A DNA stretch of 64,000 nucleotides from a virus, in the UHGV virus genome UHGV-0219032; one strand, written 5' to 3'. This document shows, piece by piece, positions 5,264 to 39,082 of this stretch; the first letter of the stretch is position 1, and each line of letters begins with the position of its first letter. The notes below the pieces were generated by a model, which searched no databases, was not told the origin of the DNA, and worked only from the letters and a program-made list of their open reading frames with translations. The position numbers and the translations under genes are program-made.

Positions 5264-6116
5264 TTTCCACCTCTTTTATTCTATTTATTGCTATATCAAA
5301 ATAATTTTCGTCAAGCTCTATTCCTATAAATTTTCTTTTTAGTTTTTTACAAGCAACACCTGTTGTGCCACTACCCATAGTAAAATCTAAAACCAAATCT
5401 CCTTCTTTTGTATATGTTTTAATTAAATATTCCATTAATTCTAATGGTTTTTGTGTTGGGTGTAAATTATTATTTTTTGAACCATTAATTTTTATAACAG
5501 ATTTTGGGTTTCTATAACCATCATCTTCATTTCTTACATGCTTAACTTTTCCATAATGACATTCATTTCTATCAATAATAGAATTTACACTTTTTCTTCT
5601 ATCAACTTTTGCATATTTATCATAATGTCTATATGTTAAAAAATCCAACATTTCTTTTTTATTATAATTCATAATTTCATCTATCTCTATTACTTTATAT
5701 CTTTGAGGATTATAATTTATTTTTCCGTCTGAAAAAACAACAATATTTTCATGATATTTTAAAGGATTACTTTTTGCACTCATAAAATTTGTTGCATATT
5801 GTTTTTCCCATATCCATTCATATTTAAATTCTGAAATATTACTACATATTAATTGACTTGTAAAAGGTTGTGAACCAAATAAAATTATGGGTGTATTTTC
5901 TTTTCTTAATAATTTTAAACTATGCCACATTTTATCAAATGGAATAATACTATCCCATTTACAAGCTGTTGTTCCATATGGTGGGTCTGTAATAATACAA
6001 TCTATCTTTATATTGTTATCTATTAACAAATCCATAACTTTAAGACAATCACCATTAAATAATCTTATGTCATTTTCCTCATAAAAATTTTTAATCATTA
6101 TTATCACCCTCTTCAT
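5235..6116 (-). CDS. DNA methyltransferase, N6-adenine/N4-cytosine, beta class
   Basis: ITDPPYGT (motif IV) early, FTMGSGTTGVAC (motif I, FxGxG) late: permuted beta-class order. Confidence 0.75.
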   Translation of the reverse strand: MKRVIIMIKNFYEENDIRLFNGDCLKVMDLLIDNNIKIDCIITDPPYGTTACKWDSIIPFDKMWHSLKLLRKENTPIILFGSQPFTSQLICSNISEFKYEWIWEKQYATNFMSAKSNPLKYHENIVVFSDGKINYNPQRYKVIEIDEIMNYNKKEMLDFLTYRHYDKYAKVDRRKSVNSIIDRNECHYGKVKHVRNEDDGYRNPKSVIKINGSKNNNLHPTQKPLELMEYLIKTYTKEGDLVLDFTMGSGTTGVACKKLKRKFIGIELDENYFDIAINRIKEVENDTKSLSDN

Positions 6117-24831: not shown

Positions 24832-24862
24832 TTTATTCCCTCCATTTTATTTAACTTTTATT

Positions 24863-24933
24863 TGAGAACAATAGGATTCGAACCTATATCCTTTACATAA
24901 AAAATGTATATTTTACCTTTAAACTATATTCTC
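24863..24933 (-). tRNA. tRNA, probably Lys (anticodon UUU), minus strand
   Basis: Hand-folded cloverleaf. Acceptor gagaata/tgttctc (with G-U), D-stem gttt/aaat, T-arm atagg-TTCGAAT-cctat, anticodon region tacat-ttttt(t)a-tgta. No encoded CCA. Confidence 0.5.
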
Positions 24934-24983
24934 ATACAAGACCCCAACTAAAGGGTCTAAATAAATAAACTAAATTTATCAAA

Positions 24984-32960: not shown

Positions 32961-35522
32961 ATGGGATTAACAGAGGAACAAAAGCAAATATTAAGTTGCA
33001 CAAACAATGGTTTAATTATTGTAAATGCTCTAGCTGGAACAGGAAAAACAAGTACACTATTAGAATGGTGCAAACAAAAACCACATCTAAAAATACTATA
33101 TTTGGTCTTTGGCAAAGCTATGAGTGACGAGGCTAAAAAAATGTTTAAGGATTTAAAAAATGTTCATGTTAAAACTACTCATTCTTTGGCATTTAAAAGT
33201 TTTGGAGTTAAATATAAATCAAAATTAACTCAATCATATAGAGCAATAGATTGTATGAGAGATTTAGATTTGAATGGTGATTATGATACAGCTAATAGTG
33301 TATTATCATTATTTAATAAATTTTTATCTAGTGATAGTGATGATATATATAAATTTACACAAACTATACTTAGAGGATATGGAATTAGAAATGAACATAA
33401 AATTAATAGCTTATCTAAATTATGTGATAAGTTATGGAAAAAATCTATTGATTTAAATGATGACACTCAAGTAGTACATGATTTTTATTTAAAGTTATAC
33501 CAAATGTCAAAACCTAATCTTGGATTAGAATATGATGTTATGATGGTAGATGAGTGTGTACATGGTGATATGTATGTTGTTACAGATGAAGGAGATAAAA
33601 AGATAAGTGTATTACATGATAAATTTCAAAGTGGAAAAAATGTACCTAAAATTTTAAGTTATAATGAAAATCTTGGTATATATGAATATAAAGATATGAA
33701 TTTTTCAAAAGTTACACATAACAGAGAAATATTAACTATAAAAACAGAAGGTTTAAATATTATAAAAGTTACTGGAAATCACCCAATACTTACACAGAGG
33801 GGATATGTTGAAGCAGACCAATTAATATGTGGAAGTGATTATGTATTTTTAGATACACCACAAAACCAAAAAACAAAAATCGTATTAAATGACGACCAAA
33901 CACAAATAGTTATTGGTAGCTTTTTGGGAGATGGAACTATTGACAAAAGAAGTCAATATAATACTTATAGAGTGAGTTTTACACATGGAGAAAAACAAAA
34001 AAAATATTTAGAGTGGAAAACAAAAATGTTTAATATAGATGGTATAAAAAATATAAAAAGTGGATATACTGGTAAGAATAATATTTATCAAAGTAATCCA
34101 AGTAAAACATTTATCTTAAATGAAGATTTAATTAGATTATGTCATGATATGGATTCGAGAGCTTTGGCAATATGGTATATGGATGACGGTAGTTACTCAA
34201 ATGAAAGCGGTTGTTGTGCAATACATTCTAATGCTTTTGGAAAAGATGAACATTTATTGTTTCAATTTATATTAAAAAATAATTTTGGAATACATGCAGA
34301 AATTAGCATAACTAAAGGTTATTATTATTTACGTTTTAATAAATCAGAATCTCAAAAATTACTTATGTTAATTAAACCATACATGCACGAAGATTTATAC
34401 TATAAAAATCCATTATGTTATCATGATAATTTTCAAAAATATCAATGGAATAATAAATTTAAGGCATATGGTGGTAATTTCATTATATCAATAGAATCAT
34501 CTGAATATGGTGATGTTTATGATATAGGTGTAGAAGATAATCATAATTTCATTATAAAATCCACACCAAGTAAATGTAGTAGAAAAACAACTGGTGTTAT
34601 AGTTCATAATTGTCAAGACAGTACACTAACTATTAAAGGTATAATAGACTCATCAAAGGATAAATTAAAACAAGTGATACTCATAGGAGACCCACACCAA
34701 AGTATATTTCAATTTAGAAACTGTGTTAATTTAATTGAGATATATTCAAAAGAAGCTACAAATTATGATTTAACAGGAAGTTTTAGGGTAAATCAAAATA
34801 TAGCTAATATGTGTAATATGCTATTGGATATGTTTAAAAGAAAAAAAGTTCACATGAATGGATATAATAAAAATCAAAAAATATATTCTGATAAAGGTTT
34901 AAATTTTGAAAATATGCAAAGTCAATTCAACATTATAACTAGAACTAATGCAACTATATTGGCTCATGCCATAGAAGCATCTATGAGAGGTAAATGGCTT
35001 TATTTTGAAGGTGGATATAATAGTTATCCATTTCAATTTTATAAAGATTTATATTGGTTTAGAGCAACAAATCAAACATATAATAAGGAACTTAATAAAT
35101 TTAAAGATTGGGAAGAGTTACAACAATATGCAACTGAAGCTGATGATATAGAATTATTAACAGGAATAAAATTTATTAATATGTATTCAAGTAAAGTTGA
35201 TAGTTTACCTAATGCTATTGATAATGTAAAAAATTATGTTGTATCTAAGAGAGAACAAGCTAATTTCTGTTATTGTACAGCACATAAAAGTAAAGGTTTA
35301 ACTTTTGAAACACCAACATTAATTGAGAAAGATTTTCCTCATTTAATAGATTGGCAAAAAACAATGACTAATATTATATCTATGTCTCATATTTATCCAG
35401 ATGCTTTAGATAAATTTCTAAAAGATATTGAACAAGATGTAAACCTTGCATATGTAGCTATTACTCGTGCTAAGGGTGATATATATTTAAATGAAGATAT
35501 GGTTAAATTTTTTAATTTATAA
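32961..35522 (+). CDS. SF1 UvrD/PcrA-like DNA helicase precursor containing an intein with LAGLIDADG endonuclease domain
   Basis: Walker A NALAGTGKTSTL. Motif II split: MMVDE|C...intein...VHN|CQDS (spliced VDECQD). Intein has SFLGDGTIDK and LAIWYMDDGSYS motifs and a C-terminal block GDVYDIGVEDNHNF...VIVHN. Confidence 0.65.
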   Translation: MGLTEEQKQILSCTNNGLIIVNALAGTGKTSTLLEWCKQKPHLKILYLVFGKAMSDEAKKMFKDLKNVHVKTTHSLAFKSFGVKYKSKLTQSYRAIDCMRDLDLNGDYDTANSVLSLFNKFLSSDSDDIYKFTQTILRGYGIRNEHKINSLSKLCDKLWKKSIDLNDDTQVVHDFYLKLYQMSKPNLGLEYDVMMVDECVHGDMYVVTDEGDKKISVLHDKFQSGKNVPKILSYNENLGIYEYKDMNFSKVTHNREILTIKTEGLNIIKVTGNHPILTQRGYVEADQLICGSDYVFLDTPQNQKTKIVLNDDQTQIVIGSFLGDGTIDKRSQYNTYRVSFTHGEKQKKYLEWKTKMFNIDGIKNIKSGYTGKNNIYQSNPSKTFILNEDLIRLCHDMDSRALAIWYMDDGSYSNESGCCAIHSNAFGKDEHLLFQFILKNNFGIHAEISITKGYYYLRFNKSESQKLLMLIKPYMHEDLYYKNPLCYHDNFQKYQWNNKFKAYGGNFIISIESSEYGDVYDIGVEDNHNFIIKSTPSKCSRKTTGVIVHNCQDSTLTIKGIIDSSKDKLKQVILIGDPHQSIFQFRNCVNLIEIYSKEATNYDLTGSFRVNQNIANMCNMLLDMFKRKKVHMNGYNKNQKIYSDKGLNFENMQSQFNIITRTNATILAHAIEASMRGKWLYFEGGYNSYPFQFYKDLYWFRATNQTYNKELNKFKDWEELQQYATEADDIELLTGIKFINMYSSKVDSLPNAIDNVKNYVVSKREQANFCYCTAHKSKGLTFETPTLIEKDFPHLIDWQKTMTNIISMSHIYPDALDKFLKDIEQDVNLAYVAITRAKGDIYLNEDMVKFFNL
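33555..34610 (+). mobile_element. intein (about 352 aa, Cys1...Asn; LAGLIDADG) inserted in helicase motif II
   Basis: Starts CVHGDMYVVTDEGDKKISVL, ends TGVIVHN; +1 residue Cys. Confidence 0.6.
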
Positions 35523-35770: not shown

Positions 35771-35846
35771 TGGGTTGTAGCTCAATAGGTAGAGCATTGG
35801 TCTGTTAAACCAAATGTAGAGGGTTCGATTCCCTCCAACCCAGCCA
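35771..35846 (+). tRNA. tRNA-Asn (GTT), CCA encoded
   Basis: Cloverleaf folded by hand. Acceptor tgggttg/caaccca, anticodon loop ctgttaa, T-arm gaggg-TTCGATT-ccctc. Confidence 0.75.
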
Positions 35847-35851
35847 AATAT

Positions 35852-35939
35852 GGTAGGTTATCCTAAATGGCTAAGGAGCTGGTCTTGAAAACCAGTAAAT
35901 GTGAAAGCATGTAAGAGTTCGAGTCTCTTACCTACCTCC
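35852..35939 (+). tRNA. tRNA-Ser (TGA), long variable arm, CCA encoded
   Basis: Acceptor ggtaggt/acctacc, anticodon loop cttgaaa, long extra arm, T-loop TTCGAGT. Confidence 0.7.
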
Positions 35940-35943
35940 ATAA

Positions 35944-36032
35944 TATGTAGTTGGTGGAATTGGAATACACGTGGTGCTTAGAACACCATTCTTAAAAAGA
36001 TTGAGAGTTCAAATCTCTCACTACATACCAAT
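35944..36032 (+). tRNA. tRNA-Leu (TAG), long variable arm, CCA encoded
   Basis: Acceptor atgtagt/actacat, anticodon loop cttagaa, T-arm gagag-TTCAAAT-ctctc. Confidence 0.7.
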
Positions 36033-36034
36033 AG

Positions 36035-36106
36035 ATGTGTAGTTTAATGTAAAACATCAGACTCCAAATCTGAAAGTTATGGGTTCGAGTCCTATCGCAT
36101 CTGCCA
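36035..36106 (+). tRNA. tRNA-Trp (CCA), CCA encoded
   Basis: Acceptor agatgtg/cgcatct, anticodon stem tcaga/tctga with loop ctccaaa, T-loop TTCGAGT. Confidence 0.7.
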
Positions 36107-36199
36107 TAAAAGTTATTAATGAAAGGTACATACAGCAATTAATTAATTTTCTATAAATAATGGTTTTAGGGATAGAATAGAATATAGTACCTTGAAATT

Positions 36200-36751
36200 T
36201 TGGGTTTTAACTGTATTATAAGGGAAGTGATATATATTAATAATATAGTTTATATAAAACATTTTGATAATGGTAAGAAATATATTGGTATAACAAATAA
36301 TTTTAAAAGAAGAATGTATGAACATATAAAAAGTGCATATAAAAATAATAGTAAACTTCCTGTACATAATGCCATGAGAAAATATAATCATACAACAGAA
36401 ATTGTATTTATGAGTAACTGTTATGATGATGTTTTAAAAATGGAAAAGATTATTATAAAAAATTTTAAAGATATTGGAATTGATTTATATAATATTACAG
36501 ATGGAGGAGAAGGAAGTTTAGGATTAAAAGTATCAAATGAAACAAAATTAAAAATTAGTAATTCTTTAAAGGGAAATAATAATCCACGTTCAAGAACTAA
36601 AGAACATTATGCTATAACTCCAACTATGAGAAATAATTTTAAGACTACATGTAAACGTATGGGTTGGGATTTTAATTATTTTATTGAAGTATATAGCGGT
36701 CAAAATAGTCATGAACATAAAAAGTATTATTATATTGAAAAATTTATGTAA
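36200..36751 (+). CDS. GIY-YIG homing endonuclease with NUMOD3-like motif, inserted in tRNA cluster (start codon uncertain, TTG/GTG)
   Basis: VYIKHFDNGKKYIGITNNFKRRMYEH (GIY...YIG...R...E), NITDGGEG; ETKLKISNSLKG (NUMOD3-like). Confidence 0.7.
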   Translation: MGFNCIIREVIYINNIVYIKHFDNGKKYIGITNNFKRRMYEHIKSAYKNNSKLPVHNAMRKYNHTTEIVFMSNCYDDVLKMEKIIIKNFKDIGIDLYNITDGGEGSLGLKVSNETKLKISNSLKGNNNPRSRTKEHYAITPTMRNNFKTTCKRMGWDFNYFIEVYSGQNSHEHKKYYYIEKFM

Positions 36752-36755
36752 AACC

Positions 36756-36801
36756 GGCTGTTTAAGTACATAACTTGGTTCGATTCCAAGAACACTCACC
36801 A
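36756..36801 (+). other. orphan 3' half of a tRNA (T-arm + acceptor 3' strand + CCA) with no matching 5' half nearby
   Basis: cttgg-TTCGATT-ccaag aacactc a CCA. The required 5' acceptor gagtgtt is not found within 700 bp upstream. Confidence 0.5.
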
Positions 36802-36804
36802 TAT

Positions 36805-36877
36805 GCCTATATAGTTCAGTTGGTAGAACAAGGGTGCAGAAACACCCATGTCGCTGGTTCGACTCTAGTTATAGGCA
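36805..36877 (+). tRNA. tRNA-like gene with aberrant anticodon arm (6-nt loop cagaaa closed by gggtg/caccc); possibly Phe-like or a pseudo-tRNA
   Basis: Good acceptor gcctata/tataggc, D-arm gttc-agttggta-gaac and T-loop TTCGACT. Anticodon region does not fit a 5-bp stem plus 7-nt loop. Confidence 0.45.
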
Positions 36878-36979
36878 ACACTCGGTTGGTAGACCCGTAA
36901 AACTACCAAATTGCTCATATACCAAGTGTATAATGAGATACCAGCTCGACAATGTCAGAACTGGCTTTTATAATTAAAT

Positions 36980-37053
36980 GGGGATTTCGCCTAAAAGTAG
37001 GGCAATAGTCTGCAAAACTATTTGAAGCGGGGCAGTACCGCTAATCCCCTCCA
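36980..37053 (+). tRNA. tRNA-Cys (GCA) with non-canonical T-loop (ggcagta), CCA encoded
   Basis: Acceptor ggggatt/aatcccc, anticodon stem atagt/actat with loop ctgcaaa. Confidence 0.6.
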
Positions 37054-37057
37054 AAAA

Positions 37058-37132
37058 TGTGGGTTAGAGTAGTGGTTACTCATTAGTCTCATAAGATAAT
37101 TTAGGTCAGTTCAATTCTGACACCCGTAACCA
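37058..37132 (+). tRNA. tRNA with CAT anticodon (Met/fMet or Ile2), CCA encoded
   Basis: Anticodon loop ctcataa, D-arm gagt/actc, T-arm gtcag-TTCAATT-ctgac. Acceptor has two G-U pairs; anticodon stem one mismatch. Confidence 0.55.
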
Positions 37133-37136
37133 ATGT

Positions 37137-37225
37137 GATAGTGTAACCCTAATAGTAAGGGAACAGTTTGCTAAACTGTGAGTAGTGTTTTACACGTGTT
37201 GGTGCAAGTCCAATCGCTATCGCCA
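37137..37225 (+). tRNA. tRNA-Ser (GCT), long variable arm, CCA encoded
   Basis: Anticodon stem acagt/actgt with loop ttgctaa, extra arm gtgt-ttt-acac, acceptor gatagtg/cgctatc. Confidence 0.6.
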
Positions 37226-37229
37226 ATAT

Positions 37230-37304
37230 TTCGAGATAGCCAAGCGGTAAGGCAACGGATTTTGACTCCGTCATGCGAATGTTCAAATCATTCTCTCGAA
37301 ACCA
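37230..37304 (+). tRNA. tRNA-Gln (TTG), CCA encoded
   Basis: Acceptor ttcgaga/tctcgaa, anticodon stem acgga/tccgt with loop ttttgac, T-arm gaatg-TTCAAAT-cattc. Confidence 0.7.
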
Positions 37305-37771
37305 TTTTTAATTATATAATTAAATATGGAGAACCCTTGCCATAGTGGGATATAGGGTATAAAATCCCAACAAATAAACCTTATTAGTTAAGGATATATG
37401 AAACGTACATCAGCAATATAATTTTATTATGTAAAAAATATATCAATTACAAATTTCTTATTAAAAGATTTCATAAATTATCACCTCCATAAAGTTATAT
37501 AGTACGTTGTTAAGAATATATTAAATGAACGTCAGCAAATAAATATTTCAGATGAAAAAGGGTTTTAATAGAACAAATGAAGATATATGATTATAATAAA
37601 AATAATCACAACAATTTTATGTTCATTGTTTATATTCTAATTAAATTAAGGAGTGATATTATGAATTTTAATTCATTATTAATGTTTATAACTTGTAACC
37701 ATGATATTACTAATGTTATGGCTTACATATTATCAAATATATTTTAATTATATATGGAGGTATTTTAAAAT

Positions 37772-39082
37772 ATGAGAGAGTTGCAAAAAATATTTGCCAA
37801 AAAGAAAACAGAAAATGGAGATGATTCCTATAAGACAACAGGTAATAAAATGATAGATTTATTGTTTATGACACAATATTTCAGAAATCATTTAAACCAT
37901 GCTCATATAGGTGATAGTGAAAAAGAAAAATTATTTGCTAAATTTATTAGAGACCCAAGATATGGTATTGGAGAAAGAGATTTAGGTAGAGTATTAATGG
38001 CTCAAGCTAATATATCTCCAATGGAAGTATTAGAATGTGGTAGAGCTGATGATTTGATTTATATGTCTATTGAAAGTGGAGATAATAAATATATAAATCA
38101 TTTTATTGAATTGTTAAAGAATGGAGATTATCATATGAAAAAATGGTCTCCTAGATTAACAAGTGGTAATAAATCAAAACAAATAGCTAAGTTTATTAGA
38201 AAACAATTAAAATTGACTGAAAAAGAATATAGACAGTTAATTAAATGTGATACAACAGAAATGAGAGTTTGTCATCATACTCCAGTTAAAGATTATTCTC
38301 AAGTTCCATCATTAGCATTTTTAAAACATAAAAATACATTCCTTAAACAAGATGAAGAAAGATTTAAAAAGTTTATGGAAGAAGTTAATAATGGTACTAA
38401 GAAAATTAAAACATCAACAACAACACCATATGATGTATTTAAAAAATGTGTTAAAAATAATTATTATGGAGAAATAAGGGTTGACAAAGATGCAAATATA
38501 TTATTTAATTCATTACCACAAATAAATGTTGGTAGTATTTTACCAATAATTGATAATAGTGCATCAATGTATGATGAATGTGATTCTCAAGGAAAAGCAA
38601 AAGCAATAGGACATTATGTTGCTAAAAACTCAACATATATGCCTAACTATGTTGTAACATTTAGTTCAAATCCAAAATTATTAAAATTAGGTAATACATA
38701 TGAAGAAGATATGAAAAAATTAACTTCATATGATGATTGTTCTAATACAGATTTTGGTAGAGTTATGAATTTATTAGGTCAACTTGAAGAAGATGTACCA
38801 GATTATTTATTGGTATTATCAGATATGGAATTTGATATTGGTTCTAGTGCATCTAAAACTAAAACAATGAAAAAATTTAAAGAAAAAGGTATTAAAACTA
38901 GAATTATTTGGTGGAATTTTAATACTAGAAATACAACTTCACCAGAGATGGATTATGAAGGAAATATTTTTATAAGTGGTTATTCTCCACAATTATTAAA
39001 ATTCCTAGAGAGTGGTTTTAATGCTGAACAATTTTTAGATAAGCTTTTAGAAGAATATCAAAATAAAATAGCAAATAAATAA
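37772..39082 (+). CDS. von Willebrand factor A domain protein (DUF2828/TROVE-like N-terminus)
   Basis: N-term ENGDDSYKTTGNKMIDLLF... (DUF2828-like), MIDAS DNSAS (DxSxS) at ILPIIDNSASMYDE. Confidence 0.45.
   Translation: MRELQKIFAKKKTENGDDSYKTTGNKMIDLLFMTQYFRNHLNHAHIGDSEKEKLFAKFIRDPRYGIGERDLGRVLMAQANISPMEVLECGRADDLIYMSIESGDNKYINHFIELLKNGDYHMKKWSPRLTSGNKSKQIAKFIRKQLKLTEKEYRQLIKCDTTEMRVCHHTPVKDYSQVPSLAFLKHKNTFLKQDEERFKKFMEEVNNGTKKIKTSTTTPYDVFKKCVKNNYYGEIRVDKDANILFNSLPQINVGSILPIIDNSASMYDECDSQGKAKAIGHYVAKNSTYMPNYVVTFSSNPKLLKLGNTYEEDMKKLTSYDDCSNTDFGRVMNLLGQLEEDVPDYLLVLSDMEFDIGSSASKTKTMKKFKEKGIKTRIIWWNFNTRNTTSPEMDYEGNIFISGYSPQLLKFLESGFNAEQFLDKLLEEYQNKIANK

What the first reader, a model, noticed from the sequence alone, without database searches (positions are those of the whole stretch)
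36107..36900. GIY-YIG homing endonuclease gene embedded in the tRNA cluster, followed by an orphan tRNA 3' half and a tRNA-like gene with a malformed anticodon arm
After four well-formed tRNAs (Asn, Ser, Leu, Trp) comes a GIY-YIG/NUMOD3-like HEG at 36200-36751. Directly after its stop is a T-arm plus acceptor 3' strand plus CCA (36756-36801) with no 5' partner within 700 bp. Next is a tRNA-like gene (36805-36877) whose acceptor, D and T arms are fine but whose anticodon region only folds with a 6-nt loop. This looks like the scar of HEG-mediated invasion or recombination within a tRNA array. Alternatively it is a tRNA-derived processing or recognition signal.
Basis: partly seen in the sequence, partly recalled or inferred. 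Interest (0 to 1): 0.65.

Follow-up and report, generated by a model that had tools for sequence, protein, structure and literature searches.

The report
Homing endonuclease splitting a phage tRNA-Tyr gene
A selfish endonuclease gene has landed inside a phage's tyrosine tRNA gene and left its two halves on either side, a new example of a known kind of event; the odd tRNA-like gene next to it is older, unrelated to the insertion, and may be a non-decoding RNA linked to a Ro60-like protein encoded nearby.

Summary
ARAGORN and Rfam confirm the four tRNAs. Pfam confirms a GIY-YIG/NUMOD3 endonuclease; its likely CDS is 36227-36751.

The "orphan 3' half" (36747-36801) is nucleotides 33-76 plus CCA of a long-variable-arm tRNA-Tyr(GTA). 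It matches the intact tRNA-Tyr of an endonuclease-free relative (L003/L004) at 53 of 55 positions. That relative carries tRNA-Asp and tRNA-Tyr where the window carries the endonuclease.

The closest endonuclease copy (77% aa, dN/dS 0.15) sits in a more distant phage (L013). It has the same junction in the tRNA-Tyr anticodon loop. A decayed tRNA-Tyr 5' part lies upstream of both copies (window 36202-36226).

I conclude that the ORF sits inside a tRNA-Tyr gene and spreads by homing. It resembles T4 SegB, but it splits a tRNA gene rather than lying between genes.

The tRNA-like gene X (36805-36877) is not a scar of this event:
- Its ortholog in the endonuclease-free relative also has an abnormal anticodon arm (9-nt loop against 6-nt here).
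- Its body and 3' trailer are far better conserved than neutral DNA.
- It alone in the array lacks an encoded CCA.

X is probably a non-decoding tRNA-like RNA. The neighbouring DUF2828 protein is predicted to have a Ro60 fold, which suggests a Y-RNA-like role. That role is untested.

The parts
35771..36106 (+). Four canonical tRNA genes (Asn-GTT, Ser-TGA, Leu-TAG, Trp-CCA), each with an encoded CCA
   Evidence: ARAGORN; Rfam tRNA 50-75 bits
36123..36194 (+). 'Shell' element E1: AAGGTAC-ATACAGCAA...(about 48 nt AU-rich interior)...GTACCTT-G. It belongs to a stem-plus-ACAGCAA motif family enriched around DUF2828 genes. Its 3' end overlaps a promoter-like -35 box.
   Evidence: Sequence; conserved in L003; family statistics; promoter-like site 36192-36219
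36202..36226 (+). Degenerate 5' remnant of tRNA-Tyr (about nt 1-26). It now serves as the endonuclease 5' UTR and ribosome-binding site.
   Evidence: Three-way alignment. 21/27 identical to the L013 remnant. The L013 remnant GGGTGTT is a perfect complement of its own acceptor 3' strand AACACCT. Only 16/30 identical to the L003 tRNA-Tyr.
36227..36751 (+). GIY-YIG/NUMOD3 homing endonuclease CDS (GTG start, 174 aa). The stop codon TAA overlaps the GTA anticodon of the split tRNA-Tyr.
   Evidence: Pfam; PHROG homing endonuclease; gene call of 174 aa; catalytic residues invariant in the family alignment; dN/dS 0.15 against the L013 copy
36747..36801 (+). 3' part of tRNA-Tyr(GTA): nt 33-76 plus CCA. 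It comprises anticodon-loop nt 33-38 (the GTA anticodon included), the anticodon-stem 3' strand, the long variable arm, the T arm and the acceptor 3' strand.
   Evidence: 53/55 identical to the intact tRNA-Tyr of L003. That L003 gene folds as a type II cloverleaf with a CTGTAAA loop.
36805..36877 (+). X: a tRNA-like gene with normal acceptor, D and T arms, a 5-bp anticodon stem with the 6-nt loop CAGAAA (no U33), and no encoded CCA (ACA instead)
   Evidence: ARAGORN 'tRNA-???'; Rfam 47.6 bits; ortholog in L003/L004 with a 9-nt loop
36878..36975 (+). Conserved trailer of X. HP1 is 36886-36909 (TTGGTAG/ACCCGTAAAA/CTACCAA). HP2 is 36914-36937. HP3 is 36941-36964, followed by a T-run. It overlaps a promoter-like site for the downstream tRNAs.
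   Evidence: First 41 nt identical to L003. Three compensatory pair changes in HP2 and HP3, read by eye from the aligned sequences. Promoter-like site 36946-36974.
36980..37304 (+). The rest of the array: tRNA-Cys(GCA) with a non-canonical T loop, Met(CAT), Ser(GCT) and Gln(TTG), all with encoded CCA
   Evidence: Rfam tRNA 40-66 bits. ARAGORN misses Cys and Ser(GCT).
37772..39082 (+). DUF2828/DUF7788 protein with a predicted Ro60-like fold (helical-repeat ring plus vWA domain with a MIDAS motif)
   Evidence: Pfam. AlphaFold2 pLDDT 85.5. The Foldseek top 11 PDB hits are all Ro60/Rsr. D261, S263, S265, T326 and D351 are invariant.

Best explanation
A free-standing GIY-YIG homing endonuclease ORF sits inside a phage tRNA-Tyr(GTA) gene. 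It lies between about nt 26 and nt 32, at the 5' side of the anticodon loop, and there is no intron.

The tRNA's 5' third has decayed and now provides the ribosome-binding site. The 3' two-thirds survive almost unchanged as the 'orphan half'.

Inferred mechanism. The enzyme cuts intact tRNA-Tyr genes of co-infecting relatives. Repair then copies the ORF with its 5' remnant. On the 3' side the crossover falls in the resident tRNA-Tyr sequence. On the 5' side, where homology is poor, the join was made at a TGGGT microhomology. That join deleted the resident tRNA-Asp and the resident 5' half of tRNA-Tyr. The split site makes the carrier immune to its own enzyme.

The neighbouring tRNA-like gene X is a separate and older element. 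It is a conserved, non-decoding, CCA-less tRNA-like RNA with a structured 3' trailer. It is probably released by RNase P and RNase Z. Its role is not known. The leading idea is a partnership with the Ro60-like protein encoded 0.9 kb downstream.
For: Presence or absence. L003 and L004, two independent assemblies with DUF2828 87% identical to the window, have Trp-E1-Asp-Tyr(GTA) and no endonuclease. Homology to the window runs up to 36206 and resumes at 36747.

Same junction twice. The closest endonuclease (77% aa, 76% nt, dS about 1.07, dN/dS 0.15) is in phage L013. It is directly followed by CTGTAAATCCGG...CCA and preceded by GGGTGTTTTGGC. Both junctions are identical in three assemblies.

Asymmetry. 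The window's 3' part is 53/55 identical to L003 but 44/56 to L013. The 5' remnant is 21/27 identical to L013 but 16/30 to the L003 tRNA-Tyr.

Intact enzyme. GIY-YIG, R29, E73 and N89 are invariant.

Precedent. SegB sits in T4 and T6 tRNA clusters, cuts within tRNA genes, and SegB-tRNA colocalisation is widespread (PMC2330249, PMC13096335).

Evidence for X:
- The L003 ortholog has a 9-nt loop.
- The differences are concentrated in the anticodon arm and the adjoining variable-loop indel; I count only three substitutions in the acceptor, D and T arms.
- The first 41 nt of the trailer are 100% identical.
- Spacer and post-array DNA are only 71-72% identical.
- X is the only array member without CCA.
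- A CCA-less tRNA-like gene occurs in four further relatives. Three of them have odd anticodon arms or anticodons: L005, L007 and L009. In L008 the CCA-less call is an ordinary-looking tRNA-Ser(TGA), and a separate tRNA-like element has a truncated anticodon arm. L013 has none.
Against: No enzyme activity, target site or homing was tested.

Only two independent endonuclease-bearing lineages are available. An ancient single insertion, followed by gene conversion of the 3' flank, cannot be separated from repeated homing.

The left-junction reconstruction assumes that the recipient array looked like L003.

Other members of the endonuclease family lie between protein genes, not in tRNA genes.

For X there are no expression data. 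Only one close orthologous pair (the window against L003/L004) supports the conservation argument. The trailer's conservation may partly reflect a promoter.
Confidence: 0.75

Rival explanations
1. Both the fragment and X are damage from one endonuclease-mediated event.
For: They lie next to each other and next to the endonuclease.
Against: The X ortholog in endonuclease-free L003/L004 is equally abnormal and follows tRNA-Ser(TGA), not tRNA-Tyr.
Confidence: 0.05
2. X is a decaying tRNA pseudogene, perhaps derived from tRNA-Phe(GAA), and has no function.
For: The loop CAGAAA differs from a Phe loop CTGAAAA by one substitution and one deletion. U33 is absent and no CCA is encoded.
Against: The body of X (acceptor, D and T arms) differs from its L003 ortholog at only three positions by my count, and the adjoining trailer is 100% identical over 41 nt, against 71-72% for flanking non-coding DNA. 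Three compensatory changes occur in the trailer hairpins. CCA-less tRNA-like genes recur in relatives and at distant DUF2828 loci.
Confidence: 0.15
3. X is a decoding tRNA with a non-standard anticodon loop, acting as a frameshift or doublet-decoding suppressor.
For: ARAGORN reports a 2-nt anticodon. Loops of 6 and 8 nt also occur in L009, L072 and L088.
Against: U33 is absent. The loop length and sequence are not conserved in the ortholog that has an almost identical body (6 nt CAGAAA against 9 nt CTAATAACA). Loops of 4 to 13 nt are seen in relatives.
Confidence: 0.04
4. The endonuclease lies in a self-splicing intron, or the two halves are rejoined, so tRNA-Tyr is still made.
For: Bacterial group I introns with endonuclease genes do insert in tRNA anticodon loops (PMC3984707, seen only as a title and abstract). 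6 of 7 acceptor pairs can still form between 36202-36208 and 36791-36797.
Against: The ORF fills the whole interval, leaving no room for a ribozyme core. No intron family appeared in Rfam at E <= 10. The D arm is destroyed in both copies: there is no pairing and no GG in the D loop.
Confidence: 0.03
5. The tRNA-Tyr 3' fragment is retained for a function of its own. Candidates are a 3' stabiliser or processing signal for the endonuclease mRNA, or a decoy for tRNA-Tyr-cleaving defence nucleases.
For: The T arm plus acceptor strand is 22/22 identical between the window and L013 even though dS is about 1.07 in the adjacent ORF. Septu cleaves the tRNA-Tyr variable loop (PMC13096335), and the fragment keeps that loop.
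Against: The same conservation follows from recent descent from functional resident tRNA-Tyr genes. Only two lineages are available and there are no expression data.
Confidence: 0.15

Closest known systems
T4/T6 SegB, a free-standing GIY-YIG homing endonuclease in the tRNA gene cluster (PMC2330249; PMC13096335)
   Same: A GIY-YIG enzyme embedded in a phage tRNA array. It is present or absent among relatives, and tRNA genes are lost on the recipient side. SegB cuts inside tRNA genes.
   Different: Only 29% identity over 113 aa of the catalytic domain, so it is not an ortholog. SegB lies between intact tRNA genes, whereas here the ORF interrupts a tRNA gene. The junction is at the anticodon loop, not at the T-loop/CCA site that SegB recognises.
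Genes split by homing endonuclease insertion ('genes in pieces', for example phage Aeh1 nrdA split by mobE; recalled from memory, not checked here)
   Same: An endonuclease ORF is inserted within a gene without an intron or intein.
   Different: Those cases involve protein genes whose pieces still work together. Here a tRNA gene is split and its 5' piece has decayed.
Group I introns with endonuclease genes in bacterial and phage tRNA anticodon loops (PMC3984707)
   Same: The insertion point is in the anticodon arm of a tRNA gene.
   Different: No ribozyme sequence and no Rfam intron match. The tRNA cannot be restored.
Ro60/Rsr with tRNA-like Y RNAs: YrlA, D. radiodurans Yrn1, Thermus phage phiLo Yrl1/2 (PMC4201824; PMC12135203)
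   Same: A Ro60-fold protein gene lies next to several small structured RNAs, some with a tRNA-like domain. Yrn1 is described with a 5-bp 'anticodon' stem and a 6-nt loop, as X has.
   Different: The protein belongs to Pfam DUF2828, not TROVE. It gave no sequence-level match to Ro60 in the PDB. The Rfam YrlA match is only 17.5 bits against a cut-off of 69. X has free acceptor ends and no long terminal stem.
T4 rnaC and rnaD (species 1 and 2 stable RNAs) in the tRNA cluster (annotation of NC_000866)
   Same: Small stable non-tRNA RNAs are encoded within a phage tRNA array next to segB.
   Different: Sequence relationship was not tested. The function of the T4 RNAs is not given in the annotation.

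Membership tests
GIY-YIG homing endonuclease (free-standing, Seg-like) | GIY-YIG catalytic domain with conserved Tyr, Arg, Glu and Asn | tested here: met
   Pfam PF01541 E 5e-9. Y9, Y19-G21, R29, E73 and N89 are invariant among 16 homologs.
GIY-YIG homing endonuclease (free-standing, Seg-like) | Accessory DNA-binding module (NUMOD3 or similar) | tested here: met
   PF07460 E 7.5e-6
GIY-YIG homing endonuclease (free-standing, Seg-like) | Present or absent at the same locus in related genomes | tested here: met
   Absent from L003/L004. Present with the same junctions in L013-L015.
GIY-YIG homing endonuclease (free-standing, Seg-like) | Site-specific cleavage of the endonuclease-free allele, and homing | not testable with these tools
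   Needs purified protein or phage crosses
SegB orthologs | Sequence orthology to T4 SegB | tested here: not met
   29% identity over 113 aa, E 6e-5 for the pair
Canonical decoding tRNA (for X) | Cloverleaf with acceptor, D and T arms | tested here: met
   Rfam tRNA 47.6 bits; ARAGORN structure
Canonical decoding tRNA (for X) | 7-nt anticodon loop with U33, and an anticodon conserved among orthologs | tested here: not met
   6-nt CAGAAA in the window and 9-nt CTAATAACA in L003
Canonical decoding tRNA (for X) | 3' CCA encoded, as in the rest of this array | tested here: not met
   ACA follows the discriminator. All nine other members, the fragment included, encode CCA.
tRNA-Tyr (for the fragment) | Homology to an intact tRNA-Tyr(GTA) with a long variable arm | tested here: met
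   53/55 identical to L003 4836-4890
tRNA-Tyr (for the fragment) | Complete cloverleaf | tested here: not met
   nt 1-32 are replaced. The remnant has no D arm. No 5' half elsewhere in the window.
Group I intron in a tRNA gene | Ribozyme core flanking or containing the ORF | tested here: not met
   No Rfam intron match at E <= 10. The ORF occupies the whole insert.
Ro60/Y RNA system | Ro60 fold (helical-repeat ring plus vWA/MIDAS) | tested here: met
   The Foldseek top 11 hits are all Ro60/Rsr, E 1e-7 to 3e-5, TM about 0.5. MIDAS residues are invariant. The structure is predicted, not solved.
Ro60/Y RNA system | Membership of the TROVE sequence family | tested here: not met
   Pfam gives DUF2828 and DUF7788 only. 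A PDB profile search finds no Ro60.
Ro60/Y RNA system | Adjacent RNA with a terminal stem, an internal loop and a tRNA-like domain (Y RNA architecture) | tested here: inconclusive
   Met by the 'shell' elements at distant DUF2828 loci. X itself has no terminal stem. The window's shells E1-E3 have no tRNA-like interior. The Rfam YrlA match is far below its cut-off.
Ro60/Y RNA system | Physical binding of the RNA by the protein | not testable with these tools
   Needs RIP-seq or EMSA

The most novel reading that the evidence does not exclude
The DUF2828 proteins form a large phage family: more than 1000 homologs at E < 1e-10, and 128 confirmed relatives in IMG/VR, of which the best 80 loci were examined. 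They may be divergent Ro60 proteins with their own, undescribed class of Y-like RNAs.

These RNAs would be 60-170 nt 'shells'. Each has a covarying 7-9 bp terminal stem and an ACAGCAAAA loop motif. Some carry a CCA-less tRNA-like core with a free-varying anticodon. They are arrayed next to the protein gene on the same strand.

In this window, X plus its HP1 trailer and the shells E1-E3 would be that system's RNAs. The tRNA array would be their home, which would explain why a tRNA-targeting endonuclease sits among them.
Probability: 0.3. Interest if true: 0.75.

Novelty: new variant of a known kind. Interest (0 to 1): 0.5.

Why it matters
It shows at base-pair resolution how a homing endonuclease reshapes a phage tRNA array. 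The endonuclease ORF interrupts a tRNA gene, turns the gene's D-arm region into its own ribosome-binding site, and deletes a neighbouring tRNA. This fits recent work showing that SegB-type enzymes drive tRNA-array change under pressure from defence systems that cleave tRNA-Tyr.

It also separates two things that look alike in raw sequence, a true scar and a conserved non-decoding tRNA-like RNA.

Finally, it points to a testable link between tRNA-like RNAs and a widespread, uncharacterised Ro60-like phage protein.

Tried and rejected
Searches that gave nothing useful:
- blastn of the cluster against 50,697 phage records found only generic tRNA similarity.
- The single DUF2828 protein and exact fragment patterns found nothing relevant in IMG/VR; one hit was a coincidental match in a coding region.
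- No 5' half of tRNA-Tyr elsewhere in the window; matches were at chance level.
- Searching X and the fragment alone against phages was uninformative.
- A PDB sequence-profile search with DUF2828 found no Ro60; only the fold search did.
- The HP1 pattern found nothing in genome contigs.
- A literature search on phage tRNA-like genes with odd anticodon loops found nothing relevant.

Checks that weakened or ruled out an idea:
- The Rfam YrlA hit across the fragment and X (17.5 bits, E 2.8) is not significant.
- HP1 as a preQ1-type riboswitch: no PreQ1 family hit at E <= 10, only a weak DUF2815-RNA hit at E 0.28.
- Other endonuclease homologs (47-64% identity) are not in tRNA arrays, so the family as a whole is not tRNA-specific.

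Methods that failed:
- My regex for mini-shell hairpins was faulty and mostly picked up tRNA-Cys anticodon loops, so I discarded it.
- RNAalifold did not call the shell stem because the 3' strands were misaligned. I read the stems directly from the sequences instead.
Full report
**What is there**

The window is a 64-kb stretch of an AT-rich phage-like metagenome contig, ENA ERZ27275819 k141_63003. Between a UvrD-like helicase gene and a DUF2828 gene lies a + strand tRNA array.

The array runs in this order:
- Asn, Ser(TGA), Leu(TAG), Trp
- a 93-nt spacer
- a GIY-YIG/NUMOD3 ORF
- a tRNA 3' fragment
- a tRNA-like gene, X
- about 100 nt of hairpins
- Cys(GCA), Met, Ser(GCT), Gln

ARAGORN misses Cys and Ser(GCT). 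Rfam finds both, at 44.8 and 43.7 bits.

The ORF matches Pfam GIY-YIG (E 5e-9) and NUMOD3 (E 7.5e-6). The public gene call starts at GTG 36227 behind AAGGGAA, giving 174 aa.

**The orphan fragment**

A search with the DUF2828 protein found graded relatives. L003 and L004 come from two different samples. Their DUF2828 is 87% identical to the window's, and their tRNA clusters are identical to each other. They have no endonuclease.

After Trp and the homologous spacer, they carry tRNA-Asp(GTC) and then a tRNA-Tyr(GTA) with a long variable arm. That tRNA-Tyr lies at L003 4803-4890. Rfam scores it 49.9 bits under the tRNA-Sec model because of the long arm. Its loop is CTGTAAA, and RNAfold gives a cloverleaf.

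Pairwise alignment shows that homology with the window runs to 36206 (..TTTTGGGT) and resumes at 36747 (TGTAAAACCGG...). The fragment 36747-36801 is 53/55 identical to nt 33-76 plus CCA of that tRNA-Tyr. The stop codon of the endonuclease (ATG TAA) is built from the anticodon loop.

**The same junction in a second phage**

The closest endonuclease homolog, P0122, is 77% identical in protein sequence. It lies in a more distant DUF2828 phage, L013. The same arrangement is seen in three assemblies, L013-L015.

It is also followed immediately by a tRNA-Tyr 3' part: TAA|CTGTAAATCCGG...CTTGGTTCGATTCCAAGAACACCTACCA. It is preceded by GGGTGTTTTGGCTGTACTATAAAGGAAATG. GGGTGTT is a perfect complement, with G1-U72, of that copy's acceptor 3' strand AACACCT. 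The stretch aligns 19/30 with nt 1-30 of the L003 tRNA-Tyr.

The window has the corresponding remnant at 36202-36226. It is 21/27 identical to L013 but only 16/30 identical to the L003 tRNA-Tyr. The D arm no longer pairs in either copy, so no functional tRNA can be rebuilt. The ORF therefore sits inside a tRNA-Tyr gene. There is no room for an intron ribozyme and no Rfam intron hit.

**Is the endonuclease alive, and how did it move?**

Between the two copies, dS is about 1.07 and dN/dS is 0.15. The catalytic residues are invariant across 16 homologs. The ORF has therefore been kept functional.

The flanks behave differently on the two sides:
- The window's 3' part is the resident type. It matches L003 at 53/55 positions and L013 at 44/56.
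- The 5' remnant is the type that travels with the endonuclease.

This is the pattern expected if the cassette, meaning the remnant plus the ORF, homes into resident tRNA-Tyr genes. In that model the 3' crossover falls inside the tRNA and the 5' join is untidy. In the window, TGGGT is shared by the L003 tRNA-Asp start, the L013 remnant and the window junction. A join at that microhomology would delete tRNA-Asp and the resident 5' half. These steps are inferred, not shown.

More distant members of the endonuclease family lie between protein genes. The tRNA-Tyr site is therefore specific to this sub-lineage.

**What is already known**

T4 segB is a GIY-YIG endonuclease gene lying between tRNA genes. 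SegB recognises the T-loop motif GGTTCRANTCC and cuts inside tRNA genes. Its homing removes tRNA markers from the recipient (PMC2330249).

A 2026 paper shows that SegB drives amplification of tRNA-Tyr against Septu, a defence that cleaves tRNA-Tyr. It also shows that segB-tRNA colocalisation is widespread (PMC13096335).

The window's enzyme is only 29% identical to SegB, over the catalytic domain alone. This finding is thus a new instance of a known phenomenon. The unusual feature is that the ORF interrupts a tRNA gene rather than lying between genes.

**The tRNA-like gene X**

X has a 7-bp acceptor stem, a 4-bp D stem and a 5-bp T stem with a TTCGACT loop. Its anticodon arm is GGGTG/CACCC with the 6-nt loop CAGAAA. 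It has no U33, and ACA follows the discriminator instead of CCA. All nine other array members encode CCA, the tRNA-Tyr fragment included.

The ortholog in L003/L004 follows tRNA-Ser(TGA), not tRNA-Tyr, and there is no endonuclease nearby. Its arm is ATGGG/CCCAT with a 9-nt loop CTAATAACA.

Conservation between the window and L003:

| Region | Identity |
|---|---|
| X overall | 86% |
| First 41 nt of the X trailer | 100% |
| tRNA-Leu | 90% |
| tRNA-Trp | 76% |
| Spacer | 71% |
| Post-array DNA | 72% |

Reading the alignment by eye, the differences in X cluster in the anticodon arm and the adjoining variable-loop indel. I count only three substitutions in the acceptor, D and T arms. Trailer hairpins HP2 and HP3 show three compensatory pair changes: A-U to G-C in HP2, and U-A/C-G swapped to C-G/U-A in HP3. 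I read these by hand from the aligned sequences.

A CCA-less tRNA-like gene also occurs in L005, L007, L008 and L009. Those in L005, L007 and L009 have odd anticodon arms or anticodons; the one in L008 looks like an ordinary tRNA-Ser(TGA). L008 carries, in addition, a separate tRNA-like element with a 4-bp stem and a tetraloop. L013 has none without CCA. It does have, in the position that X occupies in the window, an odd tRNA-like gene with a long anticodon arm that encodes CCA.

X is therefore not a scar, and it is not a decoding tRNA. Its body and trailer appear to be under selection while its anticodon loop is free to vary. A CCA-less end is the expected RNase Z substrate (established knowledge for Firmicutes). 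Cleavage there would also define the 5' end of the trailer. That is inference.

**The neighbourhood, and the most novel reading**

The DUF2828 protein folds with good confidence (pLDDT 85.5). Its top 11 PDB matches are all Ro60/Rsr, among them a Thermus phage Ro60. The MIDAS residues are invariant. Sequence methods do not see the relationship. Ro60 proteins work with adjacent Y RNAs, some of which are tRNA-like (PMC4201824, PMC12135203).

I surveyed 80 IMG/VR DUF2828 loci:
- 40 have tRNAs within 3 kb.
- A single CCA-less tRNA-like gene recurs, either among CCA-encoding tRNAs or alone 144-620 nt downstream of the protein gene.
- Most of those tested are enclosed in a 'shell': AAAG-S-nACAGCAAAA-[core]-S'-UUGnUUAA. 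The stems are perfect over 7-9 bp and differ in sequence from locus to locus.
- A pattern search found 199 shells on the protein-coding strand, in 66 of the 80 loci. That compares with 38 on the other strand, 24 in shuffled sequence, and 3 in 129 kb of control loci.
- 89 of the shells lie within 1 kb downstream of the gene.
- 15 of the shells enclose a tRNA-like gene called by ARAGORN, and none of those encodes CCA.
- No Rfam family matches the shells at gathering threshold.

The window has three such shells: E1 36123-36194 (inside the finding's coordinates), E2 37401-37509 and E3 37524-37628. Their interiors are not tRNA-like.

HP1, the hairpin directly after X, loosely resembles a shell without an interior. 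It also occurs as an exact 23-mer in unrelated marine phage contigs.

I rate the idea that these RNAs are Y-like partners of the DUF2828 protein at about 0.3. The architecture and the linkage fit. Binding is untested, X lacks a terminal stem, and the shells could instead be regulatory or processing elements.

**Verdict**

The core finding is a well-resolved new variant of the SegB-type situation. The tRNA-like RNA and its link to a Ro60-like protein are the parts worth following up.

Noticed in passing
window 36123-36194, 37401-37509, 37524-37628; L057-L136: There is a repeated 'shell' element: AA-[5-7 nt stem]-nACAGCAA...[60-170 nt]...[complementary stem]-TTG. It is strongly enriched, and strand-specific, around DUF2828 genes: 199 hits on the coding strand against 24 in shuffled sequence and 3 in control loci. 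Some shells enclose CCA-less tRNA-like cores.
   Followed up: yes
window 37772-39082: The DUF2828/DUF7788 protein is predicted to have a Ro60 (TROVE-like ring plus vWA/MIDAS) fold, although there is no detectable sequence similarity. About half of 80 homologous viral loci have tRNAs within 3 kb.
   Followed up: yes
window 36886-36909; L005 5716-5739; L011, L012, L137-L146: The hairpin TTGGTAG-ACCYGTAAAA-CTACCAA follows X. It occurs as an exact 23-mer in unrelated marine phage contigs, sometimes just upstream of a ribosome-binding site and inside larger conserved non-coding regions. The flanking CGG..CCG and CAG..CTG covary, which would allow a pseudoknot. The loop resembles a tRNA-Tyr anticodon loop. 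There is a weak sub-threshold hit to Rfam DUF2815 RNA.
   Followed up: partly
window 37328-37349; L003 about 5535-5560; L007 about 5660-5720; L009 about 5660-5770: A second hairpin motif, GGAGAn-stem-(A/T)GCCA(T/A)AG(T)-stem, has covarying stems (CCC/GGG, CCTA/TAGG, TCTCA/TGAGA). It is repeated one to three times upstream of the DUF2828 gene.
   Followed up: no
window 36980-37053; L013 4669-4742: tRNA-Cys(GCA) has a 4-bp T stem and a T loop without the TTC motif (GGCAGTA; AGCGTTA in L013). The stems covary (GCGG/CCGC against TCGG/CCGA). ARAGORN misses the window copy.
   Followed up: partly
L005 about 5541-5620; L013 4579-4662: A second class of odd tRNA-like genes has a 6-7 bp anticodon stem and an 11-13 nt loop that starts TGCC. 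The L013 copy encodes CCA and occupies the position that X has in the window.
   Followed up: no
window 32961-35522: The UvrD-like helicase carries a LAGLIDADG intein (853 aa). L003, L004 and L007 have intein-free versions of 501-502 aa. This is a second mobile element within 1 kb of the array.
   Followed up: partly
window 37661-37747: A 28-codon ORF (MNFNSLLMFITCNHDITNVMAYILSNIF) with its own ribosome-binding site lies just upstream of the DUF2828 gene. It is conserved in L003 with mostly conservative changes.
   Followed up: no
window 37480-37489: The sequence ATCACCTCCA, which resembles the 3' end of 16S rRNA (anti-Shine-Dalgarno), lies inside shell E2. Similar CCTCC stretches occur in the corresponding elements of L003, L005 and L007.
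   Followed up: no
window 24862-24934 (- strand): A lone tRNA-Lys(TTT) without encoded CCA lies 11 kb from the array, on the opposite strand (Rfam 56.3 bits).
   Followed up: no
window 36791-36797 and 36877-36883: The 7-mer AACACTC ends the tRNA-Tyr acceptor strand. It recurs as the discriminator plus the first trailer bases of X.
   Followed up: no
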